This document shows, in pieces, positions 10,036 through 32,000 of a stretch of DNA of 32,000 nt. Under the pieces are notes generated by a model that worked only from the letters and a program-made list of their open reading frames with translations, made no database searches and was not told the DNA's origin. The translations under genes and the position numbers were made by a program. Origin of the DNA: Candidatus Electronema halotolerans (GTDB lineage Bacteria > Desulfobacterota > Desulfobulbia > Desulfobulbales > Desulfobulbaceae); NCBI GenBank assembly GCA_942493095.1, contig OW818675.1, forward strand, positions 1,380,001-1,412,000, in the 5' to 3' direction. Each line of letters begins with the position of its first letter. Position 1 is the stretch's first letter.

Positions 10036-11094
10036 TCAGGACTGCGCTCTGATGGTCATGTAAGCAGGAAAATGCTGCATCTGACTCAGGTCATTTTCCA
10101 AGATGACTCGTTTTCCGTCCGCCGCCTTGCCCTTCTCCTTGAAATGGGCGAATTTGTAGGTCATATACATCATCCGGTTTCTCTCATTGCTGACAAACTC
10201 CGCCAGCAACCGCACACCCTTTTCTTGAGCCGCCTTTCTGATGTGATTGATCAGCACGCTGCCGACCCCGCGTGACATGACCCGGCAGGACATGAGCAGC
10301 AGCTTGATGGTCCAGACCTGCTCCCGGCATTCGATCAGAACCAGCCCGATCTTGCCGTAGGTGCCGTACTTGTCCTCAAGCCCGGCAATCAGCAGGATAT
10401 GATCCTCAGACTGCCGGAAGCGGTCCAGCTCCTCATACGAATAGGCATCGCCAGTGGTGTTGAGTTGATGGGTGCGCACCGTGAGTTCCTCGGCCCGCTT
10501 CAAGTCTTCCTCCTGCGCGGGCGCAATGGTCAGCACCATGTTCAGAGTGGCGAGAAACTCCTCCTTTGGCCCGACAAACTCCTCCTCCACCGCCTCGCGC
10601 CGCTGGTCGCTGAGATACATCTGCCGCCGCTTGGCCGAATCCTCTGTGATGAAACGGGGGTGCATTCGGGCCAGCTCCGGCACCTTGACAAGATCAGCGG
10701 CATCAAGGCAAAGCACTTCAGGCAGGGAGAAATTCACCTCTTCCCGCTCAAAGGCTTGATCGTCAATAAAGGCAAAGGTGTCAATGCCGATATTGAGCTT
10801 TTCGGCAATGGTCCTGATATTGTCAGCTTTTGAGTTCCAGTTGATCTGCGGATAGAGGAAATAGTCAGCCAGACCAAATTTCTCAAGCCTGCTCATGGCA
10901 TGGTTATGTTCATTTCTGCTGGCAATGGACTGAAGGATGCCCCGCTTGTCCAATGTCTGAATGATTTCCTGAACGCCATCGCGCAGCGTCACCTCGCTGT
11001 CCTCCAGCAGGATGCCGTTCCACAGAGTATTGTCCAAATCCCAAACCAGACATTTTATTTTCTGCTCTTCTTTGTCATGCGTCTGCTGCGTCAT
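10036..11094 (-). CDS. FkbH-like HAD-IIIC phosphatase/glyceryl-ACP transferase (first step of hydroxymalonyl/methoxymalonyl-ACP formation)
   Basis: 352 aa. HAD motif I as VWDLDNTLWNG, IDD motif, and the conserved FkbH Cys context LLLMSCRVMSRGVG. Size and layout match stand-alone FkbH/Asm16/ZmaN-type proteins. The start overlaps the preceding gene by 20 nt. Confidence 0.85.
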   Translation of the reverse strand: MTQQTHDKEEQKIKCLVWDLDNTLWNGILLEDSEVTLRDGVQEIIQTLDKRGILQSIASRNEHNHAMSRLEKFGLADYFLYPQINWNSKADNIRTIAEKLNIGIDTFAFIDDQAFEREEVNFSLPEVLCLDAADLVKVPELARMHPRFITEDSAKRRQMYLSDQRREAVEEEFVGPKEEFLATLNMVLTIAPAQEEDLKRAEELTVRTHQLNTTGDAYSYEELDRFRQSEDHILLIAGLEDKYGTYGKIGLVLIECREQVWTIKLLLMSCRVMSRGVGSVLINHIRKAAQEKGVRLLAEFVSNERNRMMYMTYKFAHFKEKGKAADGKRVILENDLSQMQHFPAYMTIRAQS

Positions 11095-12259
11095 TTCTTC
11101 CCTGTCTGCCTTTTCTTCGTTCCATGATTAGCTGCTGATAGCCGTTCTTGGCAATAATGATCTGCTGGATTTGATTGCTGCCTTCGATGATCTCCATGAT
11201 TTTCGCATCCCGGAAGCAGCGCTGCACCGGATAATCACTGCTACAGCCATTGGCCCCATGAATCTGCACTGCATCGCTGGCCGCCTGCATGGCGGCTCTG
11301 GAGGCAAAATATTTGGCCGTGGAAGTCTCCATGATCAGGGCCGGATCACCTTTGTCTTTCATATTGCCAGCATGGTGACAAAGCAGTCTTGCCGCTTTGC
11401 TGTTGGTGATCATGTCCGCAATCATCTGCTGAATGAGCTGATGCCCTCTGAGAGGAGCACCGAACTGCTTCCGCTCGCTGGTGTAGCTGAGGCAGGCGGA
11501 CAGGCAGGCTTCGATCAGGCCGAGACAACCCCAGGCCACACAGTAGCGGCCATGATCAAGCGCGGTTCCGGCGACATGCGAGAAGCCAAAGCCGATTCGA
11601 CCCACCAGATTTTCTTCAGGAATTCGGCAGTTCTTGAGTATGAGCCGGGCCAGCATGGCGGAACGGAAGCCGAGCAGGCCGCTGATGGCTTGGCTGGCAA
11701 AACCGGGCGTGTCCCGCTGGACAAGAAAGGCGGATGGTCTGCCCTCGCATTGGGCGATAATCAAAAAGAGATCAGCGACCTGACCAAAGGAAATCCATTT
11801 TTTTCCCCCTGTGATCAGATAACTGCCATCAGCATGAACCGCAGTGCTCTGGACGCTCTTGGCATCGCTGCCAATATCCGGCTCGGTCAGGCCAAACGCG
11901 CCGATGGTCGCGCCGCTTGCCAATCTGGGCAGCCAGACAGCCCGCTGCTCTGCTGTGCCCCATTTCAGCAGAGCCTGACAGACCATGCCATGCACAGTGA
12001 GCAAACTGAGCAGCGAGGCACTGACCCGGCCAATTTCCTCGCAGAGCAGACCAAAGGTGAGCGCATCCATGCCTTGGCCGCCATGCTCTTTGGGCACCAC
12101 AGCTCCCAGCCAACCGGTGGCGGCAAATTTTTTAATAACGCTCTCAGGCATCTGCTCATCCCGGTCATACTGATCAGCATGGGGAGCTATTTCCTCGCTC
12201 GCAAAAGAGCGGAACAAATCCCTGCTGCGCCGCTGTTCAGGGGTTAAGGAAAATTCCAT
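11075..12259 (-). CDS. acyl-CoA/acyl-ACP dehydrogenase (FkbI/Asm15/ZmaE-like)
   Basis: 394 aa with a typical ACAD layout: GAFGLTEPDIGSD, the FAD/substrate region GGKKWISFG, and the C-terminal catalytic-base context IMEIIEGSNQIQ. Confidence 0.9.
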   Translation of the reverse strand: MEFSLTPEQRRSRDLFRSFASEEIAPHADQYDRDEQMPESVIKKFAATGWLGAVVPKEHGGQGMDALTFGLLCEEIGRVSASLLSLLTVHGMVCQALLKWGTAEQRAVWLPRLASGATIGAFGLTEPDIGSDAKSVQSTAVHADGSYLITGGKKWISFGQVADLFLIIAQCEGRPSAFLVQRDTPGFASQAISGLLGFRSAMLARLILKNCRIPEENLVGRIGFGFSHVAGTALDHGRYCVAWGCLGLIEACLSACLSYTSERKQFGAPLRGHQLIQQMIADMITNSKAARLLCHHAGNMKDKGDPALIMETSTAKYFASRAAMQAASDAVQIHGANGCSSDYPVQRCFRDAKIMEIIEGSNQIQQIIIAKNGYQQLIMERRKGRQGRNDAADA

Positions 12260-12584: not shown

Positions 12585-13448
12585 TTAGAACATATTTGGA
12601 TATTTGTAAAATCCCCTGCCGTTTTTCCGCCCGTGCAACCCGGCAGCAACCATTTTTTTCAGCAAAGGAGAACAGCGGAATTTGCTGTCCTGATATTCCT
12701 CATAAAGAACCTGCAACGTGTCCACCACGGTGTCAAGTCCGATCAGATCAGCGGTTTCCAGCGGCCCCATTGCATGACCGTAGCATTTCTTGAAGATATC
12801 GTCTATCTCTTTTGGCTCGGCAACATGCTCCATGACTAAATTGGCCGCCTCATTCATAAACAAATGCGACAGACGATTGGCGACAAAGCCCGGCGCATCG
12901 TTGACAAGAATGCAGTCCTTGCCCATCTGCCGCAGAAACTGCTTTGCCGCAGCAACAGTTTCCTCTGAAGTGTGATAACCACGGATGGTTTCCACGGTTT
13001 TCTTCATCGGCACCGGATTCATGAAGTGCATGCCAATGACCCGGTCTGGCCGCTGAGTCACAGAAGCAATGCGGGTGATCGGCACTGCCGAGGTGTTGGC
13101 GGCAAAAATGCAATGCGCAGGGCAGATCGGATCAATCTGCGCATAGACCTCCTGCTTGACGCTCCACTTTTCTGTGACATTTTCAACAACAACGTCAGCA
13201 GATGCAAGCAGCTCGCAGTTTGTGACAAAACTGATCCTTCCGAGCAGCTCCTCCGAGTCTGCCGCCGGACTTTCCTTGCGCATGAAGCCCTGAAAACGGA
13301 TGCTGTTTCTGATCTGTCCCTCGGCTTTTTGCAGAATATCCTCTGCAAGATCAATCAGGATCACCTGATGCCCGGTCTGGGCAAGATTCTGGGCCACCCC
13401 GCAGCCCATCACTCCGGCTCCGACCACGCCAACTGTCTTAATATTCAT
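12585..13448 (-). CDS. 3-hydroxyacyl-CoA/ACP dehydrogenase (FkbK/Asm13/ZmaG-like)
   Basis: 287 aa. Rossmann N-terminus VGVVGAGVMGCGVAQN, HFMNPVP, and the C-terminal dimerisation region GPLETADLIGLD. Its AAGGAAA ribosome-binding site overlaps the stop codon of the megasynthase gene. Confidence 0.9.
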   Translation of the reverse strand: MNIKTVGVVGAGVMGCGVAQNLAQTGHQVILIDLAEDILQKAEGQIRNSIRFQGFMRKESPAADSEELLGRISFVTNCELLASADVVVENVTEKWSVKQEVYAQIDPICPAHCIFAANTSAVPITRIASVTQRPDRVIGMHFMNPVPMKKTVETIRGYHTSEETVAAAKQFLRQMGKDCILVNDAPGFVANRLSHLFMNEAANLVMEHVAEPKEIDDIFKKCYGHAMGPLETADLIGLDTVVDTLQVLYEEYQDSKFRCSPLLKKMVAAGLHGRKNGRGFYKYPNMF

Positions 13449-13457
13449 ATTTTTCCT

Positions 13458-16400
13458 TTATGTTATTGCCGCAGGCTCAGTCTCCGGGACGGCGGCCATC
13501 CCGGCTGCGCGTTCCAGACAAATTTGCATCTGCGTCGCCAGCACCTGCACATGCGGCTGATTGACCATTGTATGATGTTTTCCAGGCACTTGAATCACTT
13601 CCACAGCTTGGGCCGCATAGTCCTGCCAGCCATGCTCCGGCGGCAGAGTTGGATCCTCCGGCCTTCTTTCCGCAGCTTGGAAGAGCGTGACCCTGCCGCC
13701 GCAGGTCTTGGCCTGAAAACGCAACGAAGCGGACATATTGCTTTTATAGACCCGGATCAGCCGCTTGGTCTGCATCAGGTCAACATCAGGGGGAAAGATG
13801 TTGATCTTTCGGCCTTGTTCAACGACATGGGCTAACTGCTCATCAGGACTGAGCTGGCGCAGATAGTCCAAGGACAGGGCAGCATCGGCTTCGGCAAAGT
13901 AATCGACAAAAAACTGCGCGTCATCTTCCGGTTCCTGAAGAATCTCCCTGATGATGTGCGGCGCAATGGCATCCAGCAAGCCAAGGAAGGTGACAGACTC
14001 TCCCTGCGCCTCCAGCCGGGCGGCCATTGCAAAGGCGACCAGTCCGCCGAACGACCAGCCCATGAGCTGATAGGGGCCGTGCGGCTGCACTGTCTGCATG
14101 GCTTCAATGTACTGTGCTGCCATCTCAGCAATATCCGGGCAAGGCTCCTGCTCCGCTTCCAGTCCGAATGCCTGGAAGGCGTAAAACGGCTGCTCCGGGC
14201 CGAGCTGCCGGGCCAGCTCAAGATAGCAGAGCACATTGCCGCCCGCCGGATGCACGCAGAAGAGCGGGGCCTTTTTGCCGCTGCTCTGAATGGGAACAAG
14301 GCAGGACCACGGCAGCAGCTCAGTCTGCCGCCGCAGAATCTTGGCGATTTCCTCAATGCTGCTGTTATGGAAAAGAGTGGTCAGGGCGATGCGCTGTTTG
14401 AACTGCTGCTCCACCTGCGCCATCAGCCGCACCGCCAGCAGGGAATGTCCGCCCAGCTCAAAGAAATTATCTTTGATGCCGACAGGATGCACTTTGAGCA
14501 GCTCTTCCCAAATCTGGGTCAGGCGCAGCTCCACCGTGTCACGCGGAGCCTGATATCGTTTATCCCTGCGCTGCGACTCAGGTTCCGGCAGAGCTTTGCG
14601 GTCGATCTTGCCGTTGGGAGTCAGGGGCAGTTTGTCGAGCACGGTGAAGCTGCCGGGCAGCATGTAGGCAGGCAACTGCTCGTGGAGGAAGTCGCGCAGC
14701 GCAACGGCGAATTCCGTTTTATCCACAAGGTCGGCAGCCGGATTGTTCGCATAGCTGCGCCAAGGCTTGGGCAGGGGTGCAGGCCGGTTCGGCGTGAAGC
14801 GGGCGGCAAGCTCTTTTCGTTGAAACACCGCTGTATAATGGAATTTTCCGCCATAATGCAGGGAGCAGGTGTATGCCGTGTCCTCGGTCAGAGTGCGCAA
14901 GGCTTCCGGGGCAACGAATTGGCCCGCGTCTTCTTGCACCAAGGCCCGCAAGTCGGCAACAGAGCCGTCAAAATGGGCAAGCTGCTCCAGCAGCTTCTTT
15001 TCTTCAGCGAGCCGGGCATTGGGTATGGTGCTGATTTCAATGACCTCGCTTTGCTGCTCGGCCAGCTTATGGCTGACCTGCTCCAGCGTCACGGCAGCTT
15101 TGCCCCAGTCCAAACGCTGCACCTGCGCTGTTGGCAGAGCAGGTCTTGCCGCATCAAGATGCAGGGTCACATCATAGCGGAAGCAGGTCATCTCGTTCTG
15201 AGCAAGCCCTTGTTTCAGCTCCAGCCGCACTTGACTGACCGCTGGAATCCGCTCTTGCAGGGCCATGAACAAGTCAGGATCAAGCAGCAGTTCCCGCTCC
15301 CGGCTCATGCTGGCCTGCACCCGCTGCCGCAGCTCCTTCACGGCCAGCCCGTCATCGGCCTGAAAAAGCTGCACCGACGCATGAAAGGCTTCCAAGAGCT
15401 GGAAGTTGCGCACATCGCCAATGAAAATGGAGCCGCCGGACGCAACTGCTGCCGCTGCTTTTTCCAAAACCTTGAGCAGATAGTCAATGGACGGGAAATA
15501 CTGAATGACTGAGTTGAGAATCACCAGATCAACGGAACCCGGCTGAAGGCTGTCAATCTGATCAGCAGCGAGCTGCCGCAGCATTACCCTGTCGCTGAAG
15601 TCCCAGTCCTGCTGCTGGGTTTCAATCCACGCCAAGGCTTCGGAAGAAATATCCGCGCCAATATACTGCTGGCAGAAAGGAGCCAAGCGGAAGAGCAACA
15701 TGCCGGTGCCGCAGCCGATTTCCAAAATGCGGGCTGGTGCCAGCGACAATATTCGCGCTACAGTGCCGTCAAGCCATTCCTGCATCTCCTGATCAGGAAT
15801 CGGCTGCATGGTGTAGCTGCTGTTCCAGCCGATGGTGTTGCGCTGCCGCTCGACCGGCGCATCAGCAGATTGGCTGTAGGTGTCGTTCCAGACCTGCTGC
15901 CACTGCTTGATTGTTTCCGTCTGCGCCGCCTGATCAGCACTGTCAGCTTCACTGGTCAAGCGCGGCACAATGTATGCGGCGAGCTGCTCCTGCTCCTGAT
16001 TGGCAATCACAGCGGCCTCCCGCACACGCGGATGCCTGTTCAGAGCCGCCTCAATTTCGCCCAGCTCAATGCGGAAGCCGCGCAGCTTGATCTGATGATC
16101 AATTCGTCCCAGACATTCCAAGATGCCGTTGCGGAGCAGCCGGGCCAGATCACCGGTTTTGTAGATGCGTTGCCGCTGGCCGAACAGTTCTATTTCGACG
16201 AATTTTTCCGCTGTCAGCTCAGGCCGGTTCAGATAGCCTCGCGCCAAACCATGCCCGCCGATGCACAGCTCTCCCGGCAGACCCGGCGGAACGAGGCCGC
16301 CGTGCTCGTCGAGAATATACATCTGAGTGTTGCCGATGGGCTGCCCGATCAATTCCGGCCGTTCCGGCCAGCTCGCAACATCCTGCATGGACGACCAAAT

Positions 16401-28400: not shown

Positions 28401-31400
28401 CGTGGGCACCATCTGCTCTGGCAGGCGGGTGCGCAGCCACTCCTTGACTTCAGCCGAAAAAAGTGTCTGCTGGGGCAGCAGGGTCAGATAGGCGGCCAAG
28501 GAGGCGGAGCCGTCAGACTCATGTAGGATCACGGCTGCTTCCTTGATCGCCTCATGCTGGAGGAGCATGGCCTCAATCTCGCCCAGCTCGATGCGGAAGC
28601 CGCGCAGCTTGACCTGATGATCGAGCCGTCCGAGATATTCGAGATTGCCATCCGGCAGCCAGCGGGCCAAGTCGCCGGTGCGGTAGATGCGTTCCGTTCT
28701 GCCGAACAGCTCAATTTCGACAAATTTCTCCGCTGTCAGCTCAGGCCGGTGCAGATAGCCCCGCGCCAGCCGTGGCCCGGCAAGGCAGAGTTCACCCGGC
28801 AGGCCCGGCGGCACCGGACGCAGCTGCGTGTCTAAAAGATATATTTTGGTGTTGGCAATCGGGCAGCCTATCGGCACAACCTTGCCCCTGCCGGTCTCCT
28901 CAAGCTGCGTGGTGATTTCAAACAAGCTGCTGGAAACCGTTGCTTCGGTCGGGCCGTAAGCATTGAGAATGGTTGTTTTATCAGACAGGAAACTTCGGCT
29001 CTGGCGGGCCAGCTCAAAGGAAAGGGCTTCTCCGCCGAGAATGAGCAGACGCAGGCTGGCAAGATGGGCGGGATTGGCCTGCCGCAGAAACTGCTGCCAA
29101 TAGGGCGGCGGCAGATCAGCGACCGTGACTTTTTCTGTGGCAATAAGGCGTTGTAGCTCTTCTCCTTGGAGCAGATTGCTGCGCAGGCCGATCAGCCGTG
29201 CGCCGCCGCAGAGGGTGGTGAAAATCTGCTCAACCGACGGATCAAAGTTGAGCGAGGTGAATTGGAGCACCCGGTCGTCCGCGTGCATGGCATAACGGAC
29301 AAGCGAGGCACTCAGATGCTGACTGAGGGCCGCATGGTCAATCAGCACACCTTTTGGTTTGCCCGTGGAGCCGGAGGTGTAGATGATGTATGCGAGATGC
29401 TCCGGCCCGCTCTGCCGGGGCGGATTTTCCTCCGACTGTCCGGCAACGGCTGCCGGATCATCCAAGCGCGCTGTCTGGCCGGAAAAATTCGGCAGCCGTT
29501 GCAGCAGACCGCTCTGAGTCACGAGCACCTTCAGGCCGGAATCCTTAATCATGAAATGCAGCCGCTCCTGCGGATACTCAGGATCAAGCGGCACGCAGGC
29601 CCCGCCCGCCTTGAGAATGCCGAGGAAAGCGGCAATCATTTCCGGCGACCGCTCGACACAGAGGCCGACCAAGGTTTCCGGCCCGACTCCGAGCTGCATC
29701 AGATGATGGGCCAGCTGATTGGCCCGACAGTTCAGCTCATTATAAGTGAGCTGCTGATCAGCAAAGACAACGGCAATATTTTCCGGTGTGTTCGCGACCT
29801 GCGTCTCAAAGAAATCAACCACGGTTTTATCTGCCGGGAAATCCGTTTCTGTCCGGTTCCATTCGGTCAATTGCTGGAGATCCGCTGCTGTCAGGAGGGA
29901 CAGATCGGCAATCGGCTGTTCCGGGGCGGCAAGAATGCCCTCCAGGAGCACCTGAAAACGCGCCGCCATCTGGGCAATAGTTTCAGGCCGGAACAGGTCG
30001 GTGCGGTATTCCCAGTCGCAGACCAGGCCGCCGTCCTGCTCTGTCATGCTCAACGAGAGATCAGACTTGGCGATTTTGTAATCCGGCTTGAGCAGGGTCA
30101 GTTTCGCCCCGCCCAGCACCAGCTCTTCCTGCGGCGTGTTCTGAAGGGAGAACATGACCTGAAAAAGCGGCGCATGACTCATGCTTCGGGCCGGATTGAG
30201 CTGCTCCACCAAATAATCAAAAGGAATATCCTGATGGTCGTAGGCTTCAAGCGCGGTCCGGCGCACCTGCCGCAGGAGATCAAGGAAGCTCTGCCTGCCG
30301 TCAATCCGGCTGCGGAGGACCAAGCTGTTGACAAAAAAGCCGATCAGCCCTTCGGTCTGGGAATGGGTGCGGTTGGCAATGGGGCTGCCCACAGCCAGAT
30401 CATCCTGACCGCTCCAGCGGTGCAGCAGGATATTAAAGGCGGCCAGCAGGGTAATGAAGAGCGTTGCCCCCTGCTCGCGGCTGATCTGCTTGATTTTTCC
30501 GGTCAGCTCCTGATGCAAGCTGCTGCGCAGATGTCGGCCCTCGGTGCCCATGACCGGCGGACGCGGAAAATCTGTAGGCAGTTCGAGCAGCTCCGGCAGC
30601 CCGACGAGCTGATTGCGCCAATAGGTGAGCTGGTCTGACAAAATGCCCTGCTCCAGCCATTGCCGCTGCCAGGCCGCATAGTCGCTGTACTGAATCGGCA
30701 GTTCCGGCAGTTCCGGCTCCTGGCCCGCTGCCAAGGCATTATAAATCTCCTTCCACTCCCGGATCAGCACCCCGACCGACCAGCCGTCGCTGATGATGTG
30801 GTGCATGTTGAAAAGGAGCATCTGCCGCCCGTTGCTCAGATTCAGCAGATGCAAATCCAGCAGCGGGCCGCTGCTCAGGTCAAAATTCAGCCGGGCATGT
30901 TCGCTGATGAGTTCATGAATCCGCCTGTCCTGTTCCGACTCAGGCAATGTGCTGAGATCGCTGACATGGAGCGGATTATACGCCTCGAATACGCGGGCGG
31001 TCGCTTGGCCGTCAAGGTTCGGAAAGCAGGTGCGCAGGTTCTCGTGCCGCTCAATCAGGGCAAGCAAGGAGGCGGCGAGCAGTTTTTCGTCCAGCCGCCC
31101 TTTGCAGTCAAAGACGGCGGGAATGTTATATACAGCCTCCTCCTCCTCCAACTGCTCCAGAAAAAGCAGCCGCTGCTGGGCAAAGGATATCGGAGCTGTT
31201 TCTTCTTTGGCAAGACGGAGAATGGGCTGCTCAAACAGGGTCTTGCGCCGGAGAAAATTGAGAATTTCTTCTTTGCGCTCAGTCAGCTCGGTGCGCAGTT
31301 GCTCATTCAGAGTGCCTTTTGGAGCCTTGAAACGCAACCGCCCGTTTTCAGACCAGATTTCTATGTGGAGCCGCTTCAGGTCAACAAGAAAATCTTCCAG

Positions 31401-31409
31401 ATGCCTCAC
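13458..31409 (-). CDS. hybrid NRPS-PKS megasynthase, 5,983 aa: dock-C-A-T-KS-AT-CP-C-A-T-C-A-T-C-A(MT)-T-TE
   Basis: One uninterrupted 17,952-nt ORF. I located four HHxxxD(G/A) condensation motifs, four adenylation core motifs (YTSGSTG.PKG), five carrier Ser motifs, a KS Cys (TACSTS) with both His motifs, an AT GHSIGE, a SAM motif ILEIGCGTG and a TE GWSFGG. The individual domain features below give coordinates. The GTG start at 31409 overlaps the upstream stop as GTGA. Confidence 0.97.
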   Translation of the reverse strand: MRHLEDFLVDLKRLHIEIWSENGRLRFKAPKGTLNEQLRTELTERKEEILNFLRRKTLFEQPILRLAKEETAPISFAQQRLLFLEQLEEEEAVYNIPAVFDCKGRLDEKLLAASLLALIERHENLRTCFPNLDGQATARVFEAYNPLHVSDLSTLPESEQDRRIHELISEHARLNFDLSSGPLLDLHLLNLSNGRQMLLFNMHHIISDGWSVGVLIREWKEIYNALAAGQEPELPELPIQYSDYAAWQRQWLEQGILSDQLTYWRNQLVGLPELLELPTDFPRPPVMGTEGRHLRSSLHQELTGKIKQISREQGATLFITLLAAFNILLHRWSGQDDLAVGSPIANRTHSQTEGLIGFFVNSLVLRSRIDGRQSFLDLLRQVRRTALEAYDHQDIPFDYLVEQLNPARSMSHAPLFQVMFSLQNTPQEELVLGGAKLTLLKPDYKIAKSDLSLSMTEQDGGLVCDWEYRTDLFRPETIAQMAARFQVLLEGILAAPEQPIADLSLLTAADLQQLTEWNRTETDFPADKTVVDFFETQVANTPENIAVVFADQQLTYNELNCRANQLAHHLMQLGVGPETLVGLCVERSPEMIAAFLGILKAGGACVPLDPEYPQERLHFMIKDSGLKVLVTQSGLLQRLPNFSGQTARLDDPAAVAGQSEENPPRQSGPEHLAYIIYTSGSTGKPKGVLIDHAALSQHLSASLVRYAMHADDRVLQFTSLNFDPSVEQIFTTLCGGARLIGLRSNLLQGEELQRLIATEKVTVADLPPPYWQQFLRQANPAHLASLRLLILGGEALSFELARQSRSFLSDKTTILNAYGPTEATVSSSLFEITTQLEETGRGKVVPIGCPIANTKIYLLDTQLRPVPPGLPGELCLAGPRLARGYLHRPELTAEKFVEIELFGRTERIYRTGDLARWLPDGNLEYLGRLDHQVKLRGFRIELGEIEAMLLQHEAIKEAAVILHESDGSASLAAYLTLLPQQTLFSAEVKEWLRTRLPEQMVPTHCMVLDTLPQTPNGKLDRRALPEPEQQAATSLTKPQTVMEQHIATVWQQVLKIEQVGIHENFFDLGGHSLLLLQVQSQLQKMLQLSLPVVTLFQYPTIHSLAAHLTQNDAKEAEEAEKSNKIQVAAQPSSDEDVAVIGMAGRFPGAKNIDEFWENLRNGVESVSFFSDEELLASGVAPALFNRPDYVRAGGVLDQAEYFDAPFFGYPPKEAELLDPQQRLFLETAWTAVEHTGYDVSRMPFPVGIFAGAGTSTYFLNNLLPNQELLALVGRQQVLMGGDKDFLAARAAYKLDLRGPVLSVHTACSTSLVAVHLARQSLLRNECRMALAGGVTVFFPQKQGYLYQEGMILSPDGHCRAFDAEAQGSVGGAGVAAVVLKRLSHALQDGDTVHAVIKGSAINNDGQGRIGFTAPSVEGQAQVISAAMQGLDYESISCLEAHGTATILGDPIEISALKQAYQAQTSKTGYCALGSVKTNVGHLDTAAGVTGLIKTVLALQHREIPPSLHFKTPNPQIDFADSPFFVNTELRAWEAVEPRRAGVSSFGIGGTNAHVVLEEAPPQQSSASRPLHLLCLSAKTENALRQYRIDLAEFLHNQTEFELADLAYTLHAGRSAFAHRGFIVGRDCRELAEQLGQDKCKQWHRSRTSEQPAQAVFMFPGQGSQHVNMALGLYQQEAKFRAVVDECAELLLPQLHLDIRELIYPSGTEQPDLKGSQAAQPALFVIEYALAQLCMAWGLRPAAMIGHSIGEYVAACIAGVFSLPDALRLVAVRGRLMQSVPAGEMLGILLPADEVRPLLPDDVFIAAQNAPNLTTVSGSAAAVSRFSNELTSRRIMHSRLQTLNAAHSPMMAPMLPQFRAELEKIVRHPPQRPYVSNLTGAWITAEQVLSADYWCEHLLNPVQFSQGLQTLLAEDADILLELGPDMVLTSFAQQHRPLHKNLTALNILRSASSNRDDLDWLLNTLGQLWLKNVPIDWTTFYTDEQRLRIPAPTYPFERQRYWIEPVARQHYESSASGTEQVSSERAASLADARTAATYNRPDSDVDYLAPRTATEQKIAEIWQLLLGIEPIGVFDDFFKLGGNSLLGAQVLSRLREVFAADIPLDILFQHPVLEDLAIRLEAQQGQDAAALPPILPQAADAPLAMSFGQQRLHFLAQLEGESATYNLPGVLHLAGKLNETALRQAFAALIERHESLRLSFPISNDQAAVLRLPAYDPLEIQDISKLSAAEQNRLRKEWIAAHAKEPFNLSTGPLLRLHLLKLHAEEHILLLNMHHIISDAWTIGILIRDWSELYTAFARNRQPVLPDLPIQYTDYAAWQRTWLQGKVLEQQLAYWREKLAAAPELLELPTDYPRPAVTSYQGGHLKSSLDRELTRRIKQFSQEQGATVFMTLLAAFKVLLFRCSGQSDLLVGSPIANRTHHATENLIGFFVNTLVLRTVVDEQETFPQLLRQVKQTALEAYNHQDIPFEYLVEQLNPSRSLSHAPLFQVMFVVQNAPEHKLALDDLQATVLETENRTSKFDLTLSIEEREGCFACDWEYSTDLFRPETIARMSGHLQVLLQGIFAAPQEQLARLPLLTKEEKRQLIEWNDTAAEYQKDKTLSDLFEEQVEKTPENIAVVFADERITYQQLNKKVNQVAHALMERGVRAETLVGICAERSPQMIIGLLGILKAGGAYVPLDPSYPEERLRFMVEDCGAQILLTQTHLHERLPDFAGTRLDLDEPFLFENQPDSNPPRRSKPENLAYVIYTSGSTGKPKGVMIEQGSVTMLLHGFEQLAPARQPLHGMTVGAFSFDVSVWEIFTHLCFGGSLHLLDLQSDISPAELAEHLLAQQINSMYLPPALLEPLANELEQRTAALDWQRLLVGVEPISQGLMQRYRNLAPALHILNGYGPTEATVCAAVHCFAQADEPARRMPIGKPLPGYRIYLLDAQMQLVPPGLPGELCIAGAGLARGYLNRPELTVEKFIEIELFGRTERIYRSGDLARWLPDGNLEYLGRIDHQVKLRGFRIELGEIETALTKHEAVAEAVLVLRENDGNTFLAAYLMAANGAELDAPALRAFLKESLPDWMIPASFTVLDKLPLTPNGKIDRRALPEPAAPQTGAEAVPPRTETEMLLAGLYAAVLKTEVRSIAAHFFELGGHSLLATQLVARIRDSFSVEMPLRALFEHPVLADLAVWLEQQQRGGTLPQIQPLPETVPLRLSPAQERFWFLARLEGPSATYNMPAAVRLRGRLDIAALRQTFVLLTERHQSLRMSFPDRDGQAGLRLIAVYDPLAMSDLTALAAEKQKAALQERLEEHTARPFDLERGPLLRLELVRLNEQEHVLLFNMHHIISDGWSMSILLRESGEIYAALAKGQSPELRSLPVQYADYAAWQRELLAGDLLTRQLAWWEEQLTGAPPLLQLPADHPRPAVQSYQGGHLESRIAPELTQRLHELARQENCTLFMTLLAAFSVLLQRHSSQDDLVIGSPIAGRTLRQTEGLIGLFVNTLPLRIRCQTGITFSTLLGQVRRTALDAYAHQDVPFEHLVERLRPERSLSHSPLFQVMFVFQNNEELGVQLPGLEIEPVAQDFPTAKFDLTLSAEQRGGELVLGWEYASDLFAEATVRRIAECFAVLLDGIVRQPETDIRSLPLLTDTEKQQLVEWNDTAAPLSDALLHTLFLQQAEAGPERLAVVAAGRALTYAELRQEAMLLAGQLRELGAAQNQLVAVVMEKGWEQVVAVLGILLSGAAYLPVDPELPVVRQQYLLEQGDVRLALTQPHLSAQLDWPDTVQPLIVAARTAGGAEEKLPDLQQQPTDLAYVIYTSGSTGLPKGVAIDHRGAVNTILDINRRFGISAADRVLALSALHFDLSVYDIFGLLAVGGTIVMPAPEARRDPSLWAELLTRHSVTVWNSVPALMQMLVEDQHGQPLPAPLRLVMMSGDWIPLDLPERIRQLWPAAELISLGGATEVSIWSIFHSIGAVDPAWTSIPYGRPLTNQTFHVLNEQLAPCPVRTAGRLYIGGIGLAQGYWRDQERTEASFITHPRTGERLYKTGDLGRRLPDGTIEFLGREDNQVKIRGHRIELGEIEAALVRQEAVREAAAVVWEQEGGKLLAAYLTVDAAKTESAALPAVLREALKQILPDWMIPASFTVLDKLPLTANGKIDRKALPRPDFIASGQQAQAPQTETEELLCALWSQALKMDIADVQSNFFEIGGHSLLATQLVSRIRESFGVDLPLRIVFELPVLAEQAAWLGQQQRGQALPTISPLAQDAPLALSFAQQRLWFLTQLEEQNSAYNMPIALRLRGPLDEGALRRASTALIARHESLRLYFPEQAGTAAVQRLALYDPLTIADLSSLPAAEQEEQVQAWIGRHGGTAFELTTGPLFSLHLLRLGAQEQILLFNMHHIISDGWSMGILVRDWGELYCSCLENRKANLPELSIQYTDFAAWQKSWLHGKALHEQLEYWRGKLAGVPELLELPTDYPRPAEISYQGRHLQSALPAELAQAVRLLSREHGATVFMTLLAAFNVLLHRYSGQTDLLVGSPIANRTQRQTEDLIGFFVNTLVLRSQLGPAQTFAELLTQIRQTALEAYSHQDIPFEYLVEQLNPARSLSYSPLFQVMFILQNAPQESLEFSGVTVSFLEPELTTAKFDLTLSIAEQEDGFVCDWEYSTDLFAAETISRMAGHFQTLLREIVKAPEQPYSSFSLLTSAEEQELQTWNQRDFACPQDKTLVELFEAQAVRCPGNIAVAFAEEQLCFAELNQQANQLARHLLALGVGPDTLVGIYVERSLDMLVGLLGILKAGGAYMPLDPDYPQDRLHFMLNDAAVKVLLTQQHLLAHLPEHSAEVICLDSGWPEIALHSADNLSRRSSPEHLSYVIYTSGSTGRPKGVMIEHAALVNFLCYMQQRIGIKENDKVLALTTLSFDIAALELYLPLISGSQCVLIDRETAMNGDLLMEVLEQEQITVMQATPATWKMLLHSGWQQRSPLTILCGGEAMQAELGRKLLANCQRLWNVYGPTETTIWSSMQDVASWPERPELIGQPIGNTQMYILDEHGGLVPPGLPGELCIGGHGLARGYLNRPELTAEKFVEIELFGQRQRIYKTGDLARLLRNGILECLGRIDHQIKLRGFRIELGEIEAALNRHPRVREAAVIANQEQEQLAAYIVPRLTSEADSADQAAQTETIKQWQQVWNDTYSQSADAPVERQRNTIGWNSSYTMQPIPDQEMQEWLDGTVARILSLAPARILEIGCGTGMLLFRLAPFCQQYIGADISSEALAWIETQQQDWDFSDRVMLRQLAADQIDSLQPGSVDLVILNSVIQYFPSIDYLLKVLEKAAAAVASGGSIFIGDVRNFQLLEAFHASVQLFQADDGLAVKELRQRVQASMSRERELLLDPDLFMALQERIPAVSQVRLELKQGLAQNEMTCFRYDVTLHLDAARPALPTAQVQRLDWGKAAVTLEQVSHKLAEQQSEVIEISTIPNARLAEEKKLLEQLAHFDGSVADLRALVQEDAGQFVAPEALRTLTEDTAYTCSLHYGGKFHYTAVFQRKELAARFTPNRPAPLPKPWRSYANNPAADLVDKTEFAVALRDFLHEQLPAYMLPGSFTVLDKLPLTPNGKIDRKALPEPESQRRDKRYQAPRDTVELRLTQIWEELLKVHPVGIKDNFFELGGHSLLAVRLMAQVEQQFKQRIALTTLFHNSSIEEIAKILRRQTELLPWSCLVPIQSSGKKAPLFCVHPAGGNVLCYLELARQLGPEQPFYAFQAFGLEAEQEPCPDIAEMAAQYIEAMQTVQPHGPYQLMGWSFGGLVAFAMAARLEAQGESVTFLGLLDAIAPHIIREILQEPEDDAQFFVDYFAEADAALSLDYLRQLSPDEQLAHVVEQGRKINIFPPDVDLMQTKRLIRVYKSNMSASLRFQAKTCGGRVTLFQAAERRPEDPTLPPEHGWQDYAAQAVEVIQVPGKHHTMVNQPHVQVLATQMQICLERAAGMAAVPETEPAAIT
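13515..14276 (-). other. thioesterase (type I, chain-releasing) domain
   Basis: About aa 5712-5965. PLFCVHPAGGN, nucleophile elbow GWSFGG (Ser5786 codon at 14052..14054), and C-terminal VPGKHHTM His context. It is the last domain before the stop codon. Confidence 0.9.
14340..14549 (-). other. peptidyl carrier domain T5
   Basis: FFELGGHSLLAVRLMAQVE; Ser5656 codon at 14442..14444. Confidence 0.9.
14589..17273 (-). other. interrupted adenylation domain A4, glycine-type pocket (DILQLGVIWK), split by a methyltransferase between core motifs A8 and A9
   Basis: About aa 4713-5607. LSYVIYTSGSTGRPKG at 16800..16847, FDIAALELY, VMQATPATW, LCGGEA, NVYGPTETTIWS, and A8 LRGFRIELGEIE (aa 5109-5120). A roughly 400-aa insert follows, then A9 LPAYMLPGSF and A10 PNGKIDR (K5601). 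Confidence 0.88.
14745..15956 (-). other. SAM-dependent methyltransferase domain embedded in A4 (NRPS N-MT-like)
   Basis: About aa 5152-5555. GWNSSYTMQPIPDQEMQEW, SAM motif I ILEIGCGTGM at 15699..15728 (aa 5228-5237), NEMTCFRYDVTL (resembles N-MT motif NELS.YRY.AV), and IPNARL. Confidence 0.85.
17349..18647 (-). other. condensation domain C4
   Basis: About aa 4255-4687. LSFAQQRLWFL; HHIISDGW at 18234..18257 (aa 4385-4392). Confidence 0.9.
18714..18926 (-). other. peptidyl carrier domain T4
   Basis: FFEIGGHSLLATQLVSRIR; Ser4197 codon at 18819..18821. Confidence 0.9.
18966..20447 (-). other. adenylation domain A3, cysteine-type pocket (DLYNMSLIWK)
   Basis: About aa 3655-4148. LAYVIYTSGSTGLPKG at 19974..20021, FDLSVYDIF, VWNSVPAL, LVMMSGDWIP, SLGGATEVSIWS, and ANGKIDR with K4142. 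These are the hallmarks of Cys-activating A domains. Confidence 0.85.
18974..19053. repeat. intragenic module repeat (A10 region), copy 1
   Basis: The 80-nt segment matches 22142..22221 at 77 of 80 positions, including a 46-nt identical run (cttgtcgagcacggtgaagctggccggaatcatccagtcgggcagg). A more diverged third copy lies near 14590. Confidence 0.85.
20517..21815 (-). other. condensation domain C3
   Basis: About aa 3199-3631. LSPAQERFWFL; HHIISDGW at 21402..21425 (aa 3329-3336). Confidence 0.9.
21885..22094 (-). other. peptidyl carrier domain T3
   Basis: FFELGGHSLLATQLVARIR; Ser3141 codon at 21987..21989. Confidence 0.9.
22134..23612 (-). other. adenylation domain A2 (hand-extracted pocket code DVWYLGGVCK, substrate unassigned)
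   Basis: About aa 2600-3092. LAYVIYTSGSTGKPKG at 23139..23186, FSFDVSVWEIF, LLVGVEPIS, NGYGPTEATVC, and PNGKIDR with K3086. Confidence 0.9.
22142..22221. repeat. intragenic module repeat (A10 region), copy 2
   Basis: Partner of 18974..19053 (77/80 identical). Confidence 0.85.
23685..24983 (-). other. condensation domain C2 (accepts the ketide-extended donor), HHIISDAW variant
   Basis: About aa 2143-2575. MSFGQQRLHFL; active site HHIISDAW at 24570..24593 (aa 2273-2280), with Ala where the other three C domains have Gly. Confidence 0.9.
25050..25262 (-). other. carrier domain of the PKS module (PCP-like sequence, GGNSL)
   Basis: IAEIWQLLLGIEPIGVFDDFFKLGGNSLLGAQVLSRL; Ser2083 codon at 25161..25163. 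It looks like an NRPS T domain rather than a PKS ACP (G.DSL). Confidence 0.8.
25605..26447 (-). other. acyltransferase domain with non-canonical specificity motif NAAH
   Basis: About aa 1655-1935. FMFPGQGSQ, GHSIGEY (Ser1747 codon at 26169..26171). The position normally HAFH (malonyl) or YASH (methylmalonyl) reads NAAH (aa 1843-1846, nt 25872..25883). Confidence 0.9.
26730..28004 (-). other. ketosynthase domain (condensation-competent)
   Basis: About aa 1136-1560. DVAVIGMAGRFPGA start, active-site VHTACSTSL (Cys1307 codon at 27489..27491), EAHGTATILGDPIE, KTNVGHLDTAAG, and GGTNAHVVLEEAP at the end. Confidence 0.92.
28095..28298 (-). other. peptidyl carrier domain T1
   Basis: FFDLGGHSLL; Ser1072 codon at 28194..28196. 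Confidence 0.9.
28338..29822 (-). other. adenylation domain A1 (hand-extracted pocket code DPEDIGAVSK, substrate unassigned)
   Basis: About aa 530-1024. LAYIIYTSGSTGKPKG at 29349..29396, NAYGPTEATV, GELCLAGPRLARGY, YRTGDLARW, LRGFRIELGEIE, and PNGKLDR with K1018. Confidence 0.9.
29895..31196 (-). other. condensation domain C1
   Basis: About aa 72-505. C1 motif SFAQQRLLFL; active site HHIISDGW encoded at 30780..30803 (aa 203-210). Confidence 0.9.
31224..31409 (-). other. N-terminal NRPS docking domain (TubC-N-like)
   Basis: About aa 1-62: LEDFLVDLKRLHIEIWSENGRLRFKAPKGTLNEQLRTELTERKEEILNFL. This fits the G.L....P.G.L...L...L...K..IL..L pattern of TubC-type docking domains, and it precedes the first C-domain motif (ISFAQQRL at aa 73). 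Confidence 0.6.
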
Positions 31410-32000
31410 AGCTCACCTTCCTCCATTTCAGCGACTGCATCGCTTTCTTCAGCAACGGCAAGCAGCCGGGCCAGTTCGCTCACTGTGGGCAGGGCGAAAA
31501 GCTGCCGCAGGGACAGCTCTGCGGCAAAGGCGGTGCGGATGCGCGAGACCAATTGCGTGGCTAAGAGCGAATGGCCGCCGAGATCAAAGAAGTTGTCATG
31601 CACGCCAATCTGCTCTGGCCGCCGCCGGAGCACTTCGGCCCATATCTCGGTCATGCGCTGTTCCTCGTCTGTGCGGGGCGCAACCCGGCTGGGCTGTTCT
31701 GCGGCTTCCACTGACAGGTCTGCCAGCGCACGGTGGTCGAGCTTGCCGTTGCTGGTCAGAGGCAGGGTATCGAGCAGAAGGAAGCCCGCAGGCACCATGT
31801 AATCTGGCAGGCGGCTTCTGAGCTGGCTGCGCAAAACTTCAATCAGGTCAGCAGGCGCCTCTTCGGTCGGGACAATGTACGCCAGTAAACAGGCATTGCC
31901 GTTCTTGTCATCAAGCAGCACCACTGCCTCTCGCACTGCCTCGTGCTCATGCAGAACCGTCTCGATTTCGCCCAGCTCAATGCGGAAGCCGCGCAGCTTG
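31406..32000 (-). CDS. NRPS, 3' end only (A-domain C-terminus, T domain, acidic C-terminal docking tail); the gene continues beyond the window edge
   Basis: The reading frame stays open to position 32000 (KLRGFRIELGEIETVLHEHEAV...). LPDYMVPAGF, SNGKLDHRAL, and FFDLGGHSLLATQ (Ser codon at 31568..31570). It ends ...AVAEESDAVAEMEEGEL, and its TGA overlaps the GTG of the next gene. Confidence 0.9.
   Translation of the reverse strand, partial: KLRGFRIELGEIETVLHEHEAVREAVVLLDDKNGNACLLAYIVPTEEAPADLIEVLRSQLRSRLPDYMVPAGFLLLDTLPLTSNGKLDHRALADLSVEAAEQPSRVAPRTDEEQRMTEIWAEVLRRRPEQIGVHDNFFDLGGHSLLATQLVSRIRTAFAAELSLRQLFALPTVSELARLLAVAEESDAVAEMEEGEL

What the first reader, a model, noticed from the sequence alone, without database searches (positions are those of the whole stretch)
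10036..32000. Large hybrid NRPS-PKS assembly line whose terminal gene is one 5,983-aa protein with 18 recognisable domains
Seen in sequence: a single 17,952-nt ORF carries four C domains, four A domains, five carrier domains, a complete KS-AT pair, an embedded methyltransferase and a terminal TE. It is preceded by another NRPS gene that runs off the window, and it is followed by a four-gene extender-unit cassette. All of these are on one strand with overlapping or near-abutting stops and starts (GTGA overlap at 31406-31409, a 9-nt gap at 13449-13457, a 20-nt overlap at 11075-11094). Inference: the in-window part would add aminoacyl(X1), a C2 ketide with no reduction, aminoacyl(X2), Cys and N-methyl-Gly, and then release the chain. 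I do not recognise this combination as a characterised pathway: an amino acid extended by an unreduced ketide, a free Cys, a C-terminal sarcosine and an ACP-linked extender cassette. I cannot search databases, so novelty is unproven.
Basis: partly seen in the sequence, partly recalled or inferred. Interest (0 to 1): 0.8.

Follow-up and report, generated by a model that had tools for sequence, protein, structure and literature searches.

The report
Orphan NRPS-PKS cluster in cable bacterium
The window holds the intact last five modules of an uncharacterised peptide-polyketide assembly line, plus the four genes that make its unusual hydroxymalonyl building block, in the cable bacterium Candidatus Electronema halotolerans; it is a well-formed orphan cluster of a familiar kind, and apparently the first one noted in cable bacteria.

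Summary
A 17,952-nt ORF (13458-31409, minus strand, 5,983 aa) encodes dock-C-A-T-KS-AT-T-C-A-T-C-A-T-C-A(MT)-T-TE with all catalytic motifs intact. An NRPS gene that runs off the window precedes it. Downstream lie 3-hydroxyacyl-CoA dehydrogenase, ACP, acyl-CoA dehydrogenase and FkbH, the classic hydroxymalonyl-ACP cassette without an O-methyltransferase.

- The ketide is probably glycolate-derived (alpha-hydroxy-beta-keto). The AT's best solved-structure match is ZmaA-AT, and it shares ZmaA's xAAH lid motif.
- X1 is Arg-like (DPEDIGAVSK).
- X2 is probably Met (DVWYLGGVCK), so two sulfurs are expected, not one.
- Cys and N-methyl-Gly are supported.

The source is the closed genome of Ca. Electronema halotolerans (NCBI CAK87169xx), whose genome paper never mentions the cluster. 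A population about 86% identical at nucleotide level carries it at the same site next to prmA. Another, with 95%-identical prmA, lacks it there. Collinear clusters at 55-67% identity occur in a Sphaerotilus MAG and in two 70%-GC metagenome contigs, there with sulfotransferase and PAPS genes.

No characterised match was found, but MIBiG could not be searched. Verdict: a real, intact orphan cluster, a new member of a known kind, of moderate interest.

The parts
31406..32000 (-). 3' end of the upstream NRPS gene (A-domain C-terminal subdomain, T domain, acidic C-terminal docking tail ...AEMEEGEL); runs off the window
   Evidence: Pfam AMP-binding_C + PP-binding; 60% identical to the C-terminus of the L003 upstream NRPS
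13458..31409 (-). Megasynthase gene, 5,983 aa, five modules + TE
31248..31397 (-). TubC_N-type N-terminal docking domain (aa 5-54)
   Evidence: PF18563, 61.7 bits against cut-off 26
29865..31205 (-). C1 condensation domain (aa 69-515), HHIISDG
28356..29810 (-). A1 adenylation domain (aa 534-1018), code DPEDIGAVSK, Arg-like
28086..28274 (-). T1 carrier domain (aa 1046-1108)
26883..28007 (-). KS (aa 1135-1509), Cys-His-His intact
25611..26447 (-). AT (aa 1655-1933), GHSIG, carrier motif MHS, lid motif NAAH (ZmaA-like)
25059..25247 (-). T2 / ACP of the PKS module (aa 2055-2117); no KR, DH or ER between AT and ACP
23658..24983 (-). C2 (aa 2143-2584), HHIISDA
22152..23600 (-). A2 (aa 2604-3086), code DVWYLGGVCK, probably Met
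21888..22067 (-). T3 (aa 3115-3174)
20487..21815 (-). C3 (aa 3199-3641), ordinary C domain (HHIISDG), not a Cy domain
18984..20429 (-). A3 (aa 3661-4142), code DLYNMSLIWK, Cys
18711..18902 (-). T4 (aa 4170-4233)
17322..18650 (-). C4 (aa 4254-4696)
14580..17264 (-). A4 (aa 4716-5610), code DILQLGVIWK (Gly), interrupted by the MT
   Evidence: AMP-binding_C profile positions 1-39 lie before the MT
15390..15779 (-). Methyltransferase core embedded in A4 (aa 5211-5340); ILEIGCGTG, NEMTCFRYDV
14340..14525 (-). T5 (aa 5629-5690)
13557..14267 (-). TE (aa 5715-5951), GWSFG
12585..13448 (-). 3-hydroxyacyl-CoA dehydrogenase family (FkbK/ZmaG role), NCBI CAK8716919.1
12315..12554 (-). Free-standing 79-aa ACP (FkbJ/ZmaD role)
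11075..12259 (-). Acyl-CoA dehydrogenase family (FkbI/ZmaE role), CAK8716909.1
10036..11094 (-). FkbH (glyceryl-ACP-forming HAD-IIIC phosphatase/transferase), CAK8716904.1; last gene of the cluster
   Evidence: TIGR01686, 292 bits against 147; homology of the cluster-free relative L137 stops at 10028

Best explanation
This is the 3' half or more of a functional, uncharacterised hybrid NRPS-PKS gene cluster on the chromosome of the cable bacterium Candidatus Electronema halotolerans.

Shown:
- One 5,983-aa protein docks through a TubC-type N-terminal domain to the upstream NRPS.
- It carries five modules, C-A-T / KS-AT-T / C-A-T / C-A-T / C-A(MT)-T, followed by a TE.
- Four co-directional, tightly packed genes follow it: FkbH, a free-standing ACP and two dehydrogenases.

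Inferred from established knowledge of the zwittermicin (ZmaN/D/G/E) and FK520 (FkbH/J/K/I) pathways: FkbH loads a glycolytic C3 unit as glyceryl-ACP, and the two dehydrogenases oxidise it to hydroxymalonyl-ACP. No FkbG-type O-methyltransferase is present in the window, so the unit stays as hydroxy rather than methoxy.

Inferred mechanism:
1. The chain arriving from upstream is extended by an Arg-like residue.
2. The only PKS module adds a hydroxymalonyl-derived two-carbon unit. Because there is no KR, DH or ER, this leaves a 4-amino-2-hydroxy-3-oxo-acyl unit.
3. Met is added (probable).
4. Cys is added and stays uncyclised, because C3 is an ordinary C domain and there is no Ox domain.
5. Gly is added and N-methylated on the assembly line to give sarcosine.
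6. The TE releases the chain by hydrolysis or macrocyclisation.

The cluster is an accessory element that varies among Electronema-like populations. It belongs to a family of collinear clusters also found in Sphaerotilus-like bacteria.
For: - Architecture and intact motifs.
- Cassette identity: FkbH TIGR01686 at 292 bits against a cut-off of 147, plus 3HCDH, ACAD and PP-binding hits.
- AT: the best PDB match is ZmaA-AT (4qbu, hydroxymalonyl-ACP specific, 6e-77), ahead of malonyl-specific CurL. The lid motif is NAAH against ZmaA's GAAH and CurL's HAFH. The carrier-recognition motif starts with Met as in ZmaA and lacks the Arg/Lys of CoA-type ATs. Of the 113 AT motifs read among the 120 closest KS-AT homologues, 105 are HAFH and none is xAAH.
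- In the collinear homologues, no PKS module is seen in the part upstream of the megasynthase that is visible (L003, L070), so the megasynthase KS-AT module is the only one seen there. The cassette is co-conserved with the orthologous terminal modules in L004 and L138.
- A codes: DLYNMSLIWK (Cys) and DILQLGVIWK (Gly). DVWYLGGVCK is 9/10 identical to the published Met codes DVWYLGGICK and DVFYLGGVCK. DPEDIGAVSK fits 8/10 of the published Arg consensus.
- The MT splits the A-domain C-terminal subdomain and has a SAM motif and an NE..FRY motif.
- Source and contiguity: NCBI CAK87169xx proteins of Ca. E. halotolerans on a 3.2-Mb contig. HemE-HD-MBL synteny matches other Electronema genomes.
Against: - Nothing here is biochemical. 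No product, expression data or enzyme assay exists.
- The AT keeps GHSIG, whereas ZmaA, ZmaF and most cassette-adjacent ATs in the other loci have GYSxG. Use of hydroxymalonyl-ACP is therefore likely but not proven (about 0.65).
- The Arg-like call rests on 8 of 10 code positions with an unusual Pro236. The homologue L003 has a different A1 code (DAEPIGTI).
- The upstream part of the cluster is outside the window and could not be fetched. Trans-acting KR, oxidase, tailoring or transport genes there could change the product.
- MIBiG and antiSMASH comparison was not possible.
Confidence: 0.75

Rival explanations
1. The PKS module uses ordinary malonyl-CoA, giving a plain beta-keto C2 unit. The FkbH cassette then serves something else, such as an off-window module, a starter unit or another pathway.
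For: The AT has GHSIG, like malonyl-CoA ATs, rather than the GYSxG seen in ZmaA, ZmaF and most cassette-adjacent ATs. CurL (malonyl) is nearly as good a PDB match as ZmaA (1e-72 against 6e-77). The third residue of the carrier motif is Ser, which is not hydrophobic.
Against: The lid motif is NAAH, not HAFH, and none of the closest KS-AT homologues has xAAH. The cassette directly follows the megasynthase in one operon-like array, and it is co-conserved with it in L004 and L138. In L003 and L070 no other PKS module lies upstream. A full FkbH + ACP + two-dehydrogenase set is known only as an extender-unit pathway (established knowledge, not tested here).
Confidence: 0.2
2. It is an already characterised pathway (a MIBiG entry) that was not recognised here because no BGC database was available.
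For: MIBiG, antiSMASH and BiG-SCAPE could not be run. The protein collection returned no hits longer than about 2,100 aa, so full-length orthologues in named producers could have been missed.
Against: The best collinear relatives are 55-67% identical and all come from MAGs or metagenome contigs with no product names. Text searches for cable bacteria, Electronema or Sphaerotilus together with NRPS, PKS or antiSMASH found nothing relevant. The genome paper has no mention of it. I cannot recall a described compound with Arg-(hydroxy)ketide-Met-Cys-Sar, but that is memory, not a test.
Confidence: 0.07
3. It is a decaying or silent relic, or an assembly artefact, and not a working cluster.
For: It is accessory: a relative with 95%-identical prmA lacks it at this site. 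Cable bacteria have small (about 3 Mb) genomes and no reported secondary metabolites.
Against: The 17,952-nt frame is uninterrupted and every catalytic motif checked, including all carrier serines, is intact. Codon composition equals that of host housekeeping genes (GC3 0.70 against 0.65-0.72). A population about 86% identical at nucleotide level keeps MT-T-TE and the cassette at 76-90% amino-acid identity without stops. Independent assemblies reproduce the cassette/prmA junction.
Confidence: 0.05

Closest known systems
Zwittermicin A hydroxymalonyl-ACP pathway (ZmaN/ZmaD/ZmaG/ZmaE plus ZmaA-AT), Bacillus cereus
   Same: The same four enzyme families (FkbH, free ACP, 3-hydroxyacyl-CoA dehydrogenase, acyl-CoA dehydrogenase) with no O-methyltransferase. 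The AT's best solved-structure match is ZmaA-AT. The two share the xAAH lid motif and a Met at the first carrier-recognition position.
   Different: The AT active site is GHSIG, not GYSFG. The PKS module here has no KR, so the beta-keto group would be kept. The surrounding assembly line and the host are unrelated.
FK520/ascomycin methoxymalonyl-ACP subcluster (FkbG-H-I-J-K)
   Same: FkbH, FkbI (ACAD), FkbJ (ACP) and FkbK (3HCDH) equivalents are all present.
   Different: No FkbG-type O-methyltransferase is in the window. The only MT is embedded in the Gly A domain and looks like an N-MT. The unit should therefore stay hydroxy rather than methoxy.
Uncharacterised collinear clusters: Sphaerotilus sp. 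MAG NZ_JANPAB010000090 (L004) and metagenome contigs ERZ26165887 ctg140040 (L003) and OFSF01000420 (L070)
   Same: The order is the same: upstream NRPS, then dock-C-A-T-KS-AT-T-C-A-T-C-A-T-C-A(MT)-T-TE, then (in L004) the cassette. Identities to the window: KS 78%, C2 58-62%, C4 66-67%, A4 67%, MT 55-61%, TE 61%, FkbH 79%.
   Different: The A domains of modules 3 and 4 are only 37-49% identical and carry other codes (module 3 reads Phe-like DAWTVAAVC; module 4 has no Cys code). Their GC is 65-70%. They carry a sulfotransferase domain in the upstream NRPS and PAPS-supply genes after FkbH, whereas the window has prmA there.
Tubulysin TubB/TubC-type docking
   Same: An N-terminal TubC_N domain (PF18563, 61.7 bits) on the megasynthase, and a short acidic tail on the upstream protein.
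   Different: Only the docking device is shared. The synthetases are otherwise unrelated.
Peptides with an internal amino-acid-derived unreduced ketide, such as the leucyl-acetate unit of nostopeptolide made by a KS-AT-ACP module (recalled from memory, not tested here)
   Same: An NRPS module followed by KS-AT-ACP without KR, then a C domain, leaving a gamma-amino-beta-keto unit inside a peptide.
   Different: Here the extender is probably hydroxymalonyl, the amino acid is Arg-like, and the rest of the line differs.

Membership tests
Modular hybrid NRPS / type I cis-AT PKS | C domains with HHxxxD, A domains with cores A3-A10, carrier domains with GGxS | tested here: met
   4 C, 4 A and 5 T by Pfam and motif inspection
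Modular hybrid NRPS / type I cis-AT PKS | KS with a Cys-His-His triad and an in-line AT with GHSxG and a catalytic His | tested here: met
   TACSTS, HGTAT, NVGH; GHSIG ... NAAH
Modular hybrid NRPS / type I cis-AT PKS | Terminal thioesterase with GxSxG | tested here: met
   PF00975 at 1e-35; GWSFG
Hydroxymalonyl-/methoxymalonyl-ACP (glycolate) extender-unit pathway | FkbH-family glyceryl-ACP-forming enzyme | tested here: met
   TIGR01686, 292.5 bits against a cut-off of 146.65
Hydroxymalonyl-/methoxymalonyl-ACP (glycolate) extender-unit pathway | Dedicated free-standing ACP plus 3-hydroxyacyl-CoA-DH-type and acyl-CoA-DH-type oxidoreductases | tested here: met
   PF00550, PF02737/PF00725, PF02771/PF02770/PF00441. 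The same four-gene order recurs in L004, L134, L136 and L138.
Hydroxymalonyl-/methoxymalonyl-ACP (glycolate) extender-unit pathway | FkbG-type O-methyltransferase (distinguishes methoxy from hydroxy) | tested here: not met
   There is no stand-alone MT in 10036-32000; the only MT lies inside A4. This points to the hydroxymalonyl variant. An off-window MT cannot be excluded.
Hydroxymalonyl-/methoxymalonyl-ACP (glycolate) extender-unit pathway | AT that recognises an ACP-tethered extender (non-cationic carrier motif, non-HAFH/YASH lid) | tested here: inconclusive
   MHS(X)5NAAH resembles ZmaA's MCM(X)5GAAH, and ZmaA-AT is the top PDB hit. But the active site is GHSIG rather than GYSxG.
Interrupted A domain with embedded N-methyltransferase | MT inserted in the C-terminal A subdomain (between A8 and A9/A10), with a SAM-binding GxGxG | tested here: met
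   The A8 core is at aa 5101, AMP-binding_C profile positions 1-39 at aa 5118-5153, the MT at 5211-5340 and A10 (NGKIDRK) at 5599. ILEIGCGTG is present.
Interrupted A domain with embedded N-methyltransferase | N- rather than O- or S-methylation | not testable with these tools
   NEMTCFRYDV resembles the NELSxYRY motif of NRPS N-MTs, which I recall from memory. The Gly substrate has only its amine available. No assay was possible.
Any characterised BGC (MIBiG) | Same module order and cassette at high identity to a cluster with a known product | not testable with these tools
   No BGC database was on hand. Literature searches and homologue names gave no characterised match.

The most novel reading that the evidence does not exclude
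The cluster makes the first secondary metabolite of a cable bacterium. It would be a previously undescribed, sulfur-rich (Met + free Cys) pseudopeptide, with an Arg-derived alpha-hydroxy-beta-keto (reductone/ketone-warhead type) unit and a C-terminal sarcosine. It would act either as a metal-binding agent (thiol + enediol + carboxylate ligands, in an organism with unusual nickel and sulfur demands) or as a trypsin-type protease inhibitor. The family would have been exchanged among filamentous sediment and sheathed bacteria (Electronema, Sphaerotilus).
Probability: 0.12. Interest if true: 0.7.

Novelty: new member of a known kind. Interest (0 to 1): 0.4.

Why it matters
Cable bacteria are uncultured ecosystem engineers with small genomes. 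In the literature I could search, nobody has reported NRPS/PKS chemistry from them. An intact five-plus-module assembly line, conserved at 76-90% amino-acid identity over the visible cassette and MT-T-TE part in a second Electronema-like population, implies a selected function. That function could be defence, metal handling or signalling within filaments or their sediment community.

Chemically, an unreduced hydroxymalonyl extension of an Arg-like residue would give a rare alpha-hydroxy-beta-keto-gamma-amino unit inside a peptide. The cluster family also shows clean A-domain swapping on a conserved scaffold, and a sulfation option in the relatives. This makes it a tidy natural example for assembly-line evolution and engineering.

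It does not open a new category of biology.

Tried and rejected
1. Whole-protein searches failed. Pfam and the homologue search refuse proteins over 5,000 aa, and a 4,984-aa query timed out. I worked with pieces instead.
2. The big protein collection listed no hit longer than about 2,100 aa. Full-length orthologues could not be found that way; context look-ups of shorter neighbours were used instead.
3. The 'GC island' idea is rejected. I first read 58% (cluster) against 51% (flank) as evidence of foreign origin. Per-gene GC and GC3 show that host housekeeping genes match the cluster. The low flank average comes from intergenic DNA and two low-GC hypothetical genes.
4. 'The L003 homologue is split into two genes' is rejected as a biological difference. 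The break is a frameshift inside the AT lid motif of a 6x-coverage contig.
5. My first AT-motif regex mis-read the window as 'RIMH'. This was corrected by eye and by the HMMER alignment.
6. The metagenome scan for the window's own contig, meant to reveal the upstream genes, found only a 61% relative. The NCBI chromosome could not be reached through the contig index, so the 5' part of the cluster remains unseen.
7. Synteny around hemE in two Electronema genomes did not include prmA, so it could not serve as an empty-site test. The prmA-based look-up did serve that purpose.
8. NCBIfam and Pfam gave nothing for the small hypothetical genes next to the cluster.
9. C-domain subtyping (LCL/DCL), the TE release mode and KS clade typing (NaPDoS-style) were not attempted for lack of reference sets.


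Full report
**1. Observation**

The window contains a single minus-strand ORF at 13458..31409 with a GTG start, encoding 5,983 aa. I scanned it with Pfam in two halves and then in five module-sized pieces. This gave:
- an N-terminal TubC_N docking domain (aa 5-54)
- C1 69-515, A1 534-1018, T1 1046-1108
- KS 1135-1509, AT 1655-1933, T2 2055-2117
- C2 2143-2584, A2 2604-3086, T3 3115-3174
- C3 3199-3641, A3 3661-4142, T4 4170-4233
- C4 4254-4696
- A4 4716-5153, continuing at about 5560-5610, with a methyltransferase core at 5211-5340 in between
- T5 5629-5690 and TE 5715-5951

The catalytic signatures checked (for the TE, the serine only) are intact:
- four HHxxxD motifs (C2 reads HHIISDA), and no DxxxxD heterocyclisation motif
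- KS TACSTS / HGTAT / NVGH
- AT GHSIG
- five GG(H/N)SL carrier serines
- TE GWSFG
- MT ILEIGCGTG

The upstream partial gene ends in AMP-binding_C + PP-binding plus an acidic tail.

**2. The cassette**

Four genes lie downstream on the same strand:
- a 3-hydroxyacyl-CoA dehydrogenase family protein (12585-13448)
- a 79-aa free-standing ACP (12315-12554)
- an acyl-CoA dehydrogenase family protein (11075-12259)
- FkbH (10036-11094; TIGR01686, 292 bits against a cut-off of 147)

From established knowledge of the FK520 (FkbH/I/J/K) and zwittermicin (ZmaN/D/G/E) pathways, this set converts a glycolytic intermediate to hydroxymalonyl-ACP. The window holds no FkbG-type O-methyltransferase, so I expect hydroxy- rather than methoxymalonyl.

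**3. Which extender does the AT take?**

Evidence for hydroxymalonyl-ACP:
- The best solved-structure match of the AT is ZmaA-AT (4qbu, 6e-77). This is the one structurally characterised hydroxymalonyl-ACP-specific AT. It ranks just ahead of malonyl-specific CurL (1e-72).
- In the HMMER alignment, the lid motif reads NAAH in the window, GAAH in ZmaA and HAFH in CurL. The carrier-recognition triplet eight residues upstream reads MHS in the window, MCM in ZmaA and KTK in CurL.
- The ZmaA structure paper ties exactly these two motifs to recognition of ACP-tethered extenders (PMC4207774).
- Of the 113 AT motifs read among the 120 closest KS-AT homologues, 105 are HAFH and none is xAAH.

Evidence against:
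- The active-site motif is GHSIG. ZmaA, ZmaF and most ATs that sit beside FkbH cassettes in other genomes read GYSxG.

I therefore rate hydroxymalonyl use at about 0.65. Genetic linkage weighs as much as sequence here. The cassette directly follows the megasynthase. It is co-conserved with the orthologous terminal modules in L004 and L138. In the collinear clusters, no PKS module is seen in the visible upstream part (L003, L070), so the megasynthase KS-AT module is the only one seen. There is no KR, DH or ER between AT and T2. The unit left in the chain would thus be 4-amino-2-hydroxy-3-oxo-acyl (inference).

**4. Amino acids**

I extracted Stachelhaus codes by alignment to a GrsA-PheA ruler.

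| Domain | Code | Call |
|---|---|---|
| A1 | DPEDIGAVSK | Arg-like |
| A2 | DVWYLGGVCK | probably Met |
| A3 | DLYNMSLIWK | Cys |
| A4 | DILQLGVIWK | Gly |

- A3 and A4 are the textbook Cys and Gly codes (my knowledge).
- For A2, a 2025 survey of 2,051 A domains reports DVWYLGGICK and DVFYLGGVCK as Met-incorporating (PMC12283262). The window code is 9/10 identical to each.
- For A1, the same paper gives the Arg consensus D-[A/V]-E-D-[I/V/L]-G-A-[V/I]-[T/D]-K. A1 fits 8/10 positions, including both acidic pocket residues, but has an unusual Pro236.
- The MT splits the C-terminal A subdomain. AMP-binding_C profile positions 1-39 lie before it and the A10 core NGKIDRK lies after it. The MT carries NEMTCFRYDV, which resembles the N-MT motif NELSxYRY (memory). 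The last residue should therefore be sarcosine.
- C3 is an ordinary C domain and no Ox domain exists, so the Cys thiol stays free on the assembly line.

Predicted in-window contribution: ...-Arg(like)-CO-CH(OH)-CO-Met-Cys-Sar, released by the TE.

**5. Source and context**

The exact FkbH, ACAD, 3HCDH, PrmA and HemE proteins are NCBI entries of Candidatus Electronema halotolerans on a 3,199,950-bp contig: CAK8716904.1, CAK8716909.1, CAK8716919.1, CAK8716899.1 and CAK8716862.1. HemE is 89% identical to Ca. Electronema sp. JC and 81% to Ca. Electrothrix. HemE-HD-MBL synteny is kept in other Electronema genomes.

The paper describing this closed genome contains none of the words polyketide, nonribosomal, NRPS or secondary metabolite. 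Full-text searches pairing cable bacteria, Electronema or Sphaerotilus with NRPS, PKS or antiSMASH returned nothing relevant.

**6. Is it an island?**

Composition gives no sign of recent foreign origin. The cluster has GC 0.59 and GC3 0.70. Host housekeeping genes have GC 0.56-0.60 and GC3 0.65-0.72. This corrects my first reading.

Gene content does say it is accessory:
- A JGI population (L138, L139) carries MT-T-TE plus the cassette at 86% nucleotide and 76-90% protein identity, again next to prmA, with a small DMT_6 gene in between.
- An ENA contig (L137) has prmA that is 95% identical at nucleotide level. Its homology to the window stops at 10028, 8 nt before FkbH's stop codon begins at 10036. 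Unrelated genes follow, with no cluster at that site.

The downstream boundary of the cluster is therefore 10028-10036.

**7. Relatives elsewhere**

FkbH relatives at 66-80% identity are concentrated in MAGs of Sphaerotilus, Thiotrichaceae, Beggiatoa, Thiomargarita, Parabeggiatoa, Desulfamplus and Desulfobacterales. Only the Sphaerotilus MAG (L004) also has the orthologous terminal modules: TE 61%, MT 55%, A4 67%, C4 67%.

Two 70%-GC metagenome contigs are collinear with the N-terminal two thirds or more. L003 is 63% identical over aa 1-1843 and 56% over aa 2089-5421. L070 is 61% identical over the first 450 aa. L003's apparent split into genes of 2,085 and 3,882 aa is a frameshift inside the AT lid motif of a 6x-coverage contig.

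In these relatives the scaffold domains are conserved, but the A domains of modules 3 and 4 are only 37-49% identical and carry other codes. Module 3 reads Phe-like DAWTVAAVC. This is a case of A-domain swapping.

The relatives also have a sulfation theme:
- The upstream NRPS is C-A(Thr)-T-sulfotransferase-C-A(Thr)-T.
- In L004, FkbH is followed by a CysQ-like phosphatase and a CysN/CysC APS kinase.

The window's upstream gene fragment is 60% identical to the C-terminus of that NRPS. Whether Electronema also has the sulfotransferase is unknown. It has no PAPS genes after FkbH.

**8. Comparison with known systems and novelty**

The cluster works like, and passes the tests for, a modular hybrid NRPS / cis-AT PKS with a glycolate extender cassette. 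The closest characterised analogue of the cassette and AT is zwittermicin's hydroxymalonyl system. The docking device is tubulysin-type. The embedded N-MT is a standard interrupted A domain.

No characterised cluster with this module order was found, but MIBiG could not be queried. I class it as a new member of a known kind.

Interest is moderate (0.4). Orphan NRPS-PKS clusters are very common. The noteworthy points are the host (an uncultured cable bacterium with no reported secondary metabolism), the predicted Arg-derived alpha-hydroxy-beta-keto unit, and the tidy family with swapped A domains.

The most novel reading not excluded is a thiol- and enediol-bearing metallophore, or a ketone-warhead protease inhibitor, tied to the filamentous sediment lifestyle. 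It is speculative (about 0.12).

Noticed in passing
window 7960-9110 (+): Two adjacent hypothetical genes (192 and 188 aa) have strikingly low GC (33% and 40%; GC3 0.22 and 0.37) in a region where every other gene has GC3 of 0.6-0.72. They have no significant Pfam or NCBIfam hit (one sub-threshold NCBIfam hit, 18 bits). They sit between glnK and prmA and are absent from the closest prmA relative, L137, which joins window ~7959 almost directly to prmA. They look like a separate small insertion, unrelated to the NRPS-PKS cluster.
   Followed up: partly
L003 2478-9965; L070 2436-9977; L004 11904-14259: Collinear clusters in high-GC relatives have a sulfotransferase domain (PF13469) embedded between two Thr modules of the upstream NRPS. 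In the Sphaerotilus MAG, CysQ-like and CysN/CysC (APS kinase) genes follow FkbH. This suggests a sulfated product, or sulfate used as a leaving group. An ST domain placed inside an NRPS after a Thr module is unusual.
   Followed up: partly
L003 ~15560 (AT lid motif): The homologous megasynthase in the 325-kb ENA contig is broken by a frameshift exactly in the AT lid motif. Frame +1 continues ...AHSPVMAP.... The contig name says 6x coverage, so this is probably an assembly indel rather than a real two-gene split.
   Followed up: yes
loci L004-L069: The nearest relatives of the FkbH cassette are concentrated in large, filamentous or multicellular sediment bacteria: Sphaerotilus, Beggiatoa, Thiomargarita, Parabeggiatoa, Thioploca, Desulfamplus and other Desulfobacterales. 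They are attached to different synthases, and most use a GYSxG...HAFH type of AT. This hints that the cassette is exchanged as a unit within that ecological guild.
   Followed up: partly
window 4386-7817 (+): There is a tandem ammonium-transporter arrangement: amt (4386-5837), amt (6215-7444) and a P-II/GlnK gene (about 7479-7817). It lies a few kb from the cluster.
   Followed up: no
window 10036-11094 (-): NCBI names the FkbH protein (CAK8716904.1) 'N-acetyltransferase domain-containing protein'. It scores twice the trusted cut-off of the FkbH model TIGR01686. This probably helped the cluster go unnoticed.
   Followed up: yes
window 130-924 (-); L131 11732-12481; L132 11785-12534: The metallo-beta-lactamase-fold gene next to the HD-domain gene and hemE is conserved in position in other Electronema genomes. 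There, its orthologue carries a precomputed hit to PF23023 (Anti-Pycsar Apyc1), which is odd for what looks like a core-genome neighbourhood.
   Followed up: no
L138 5585-5932; L139 5329-5754: In the second Electronema-like population, a small DMT_6 (PF04342) membrane-protein gene lies between FkbH and prmA. It is missing from the window. It could be a lost or gained exporter, or just a neighbour.
   Followed up: no
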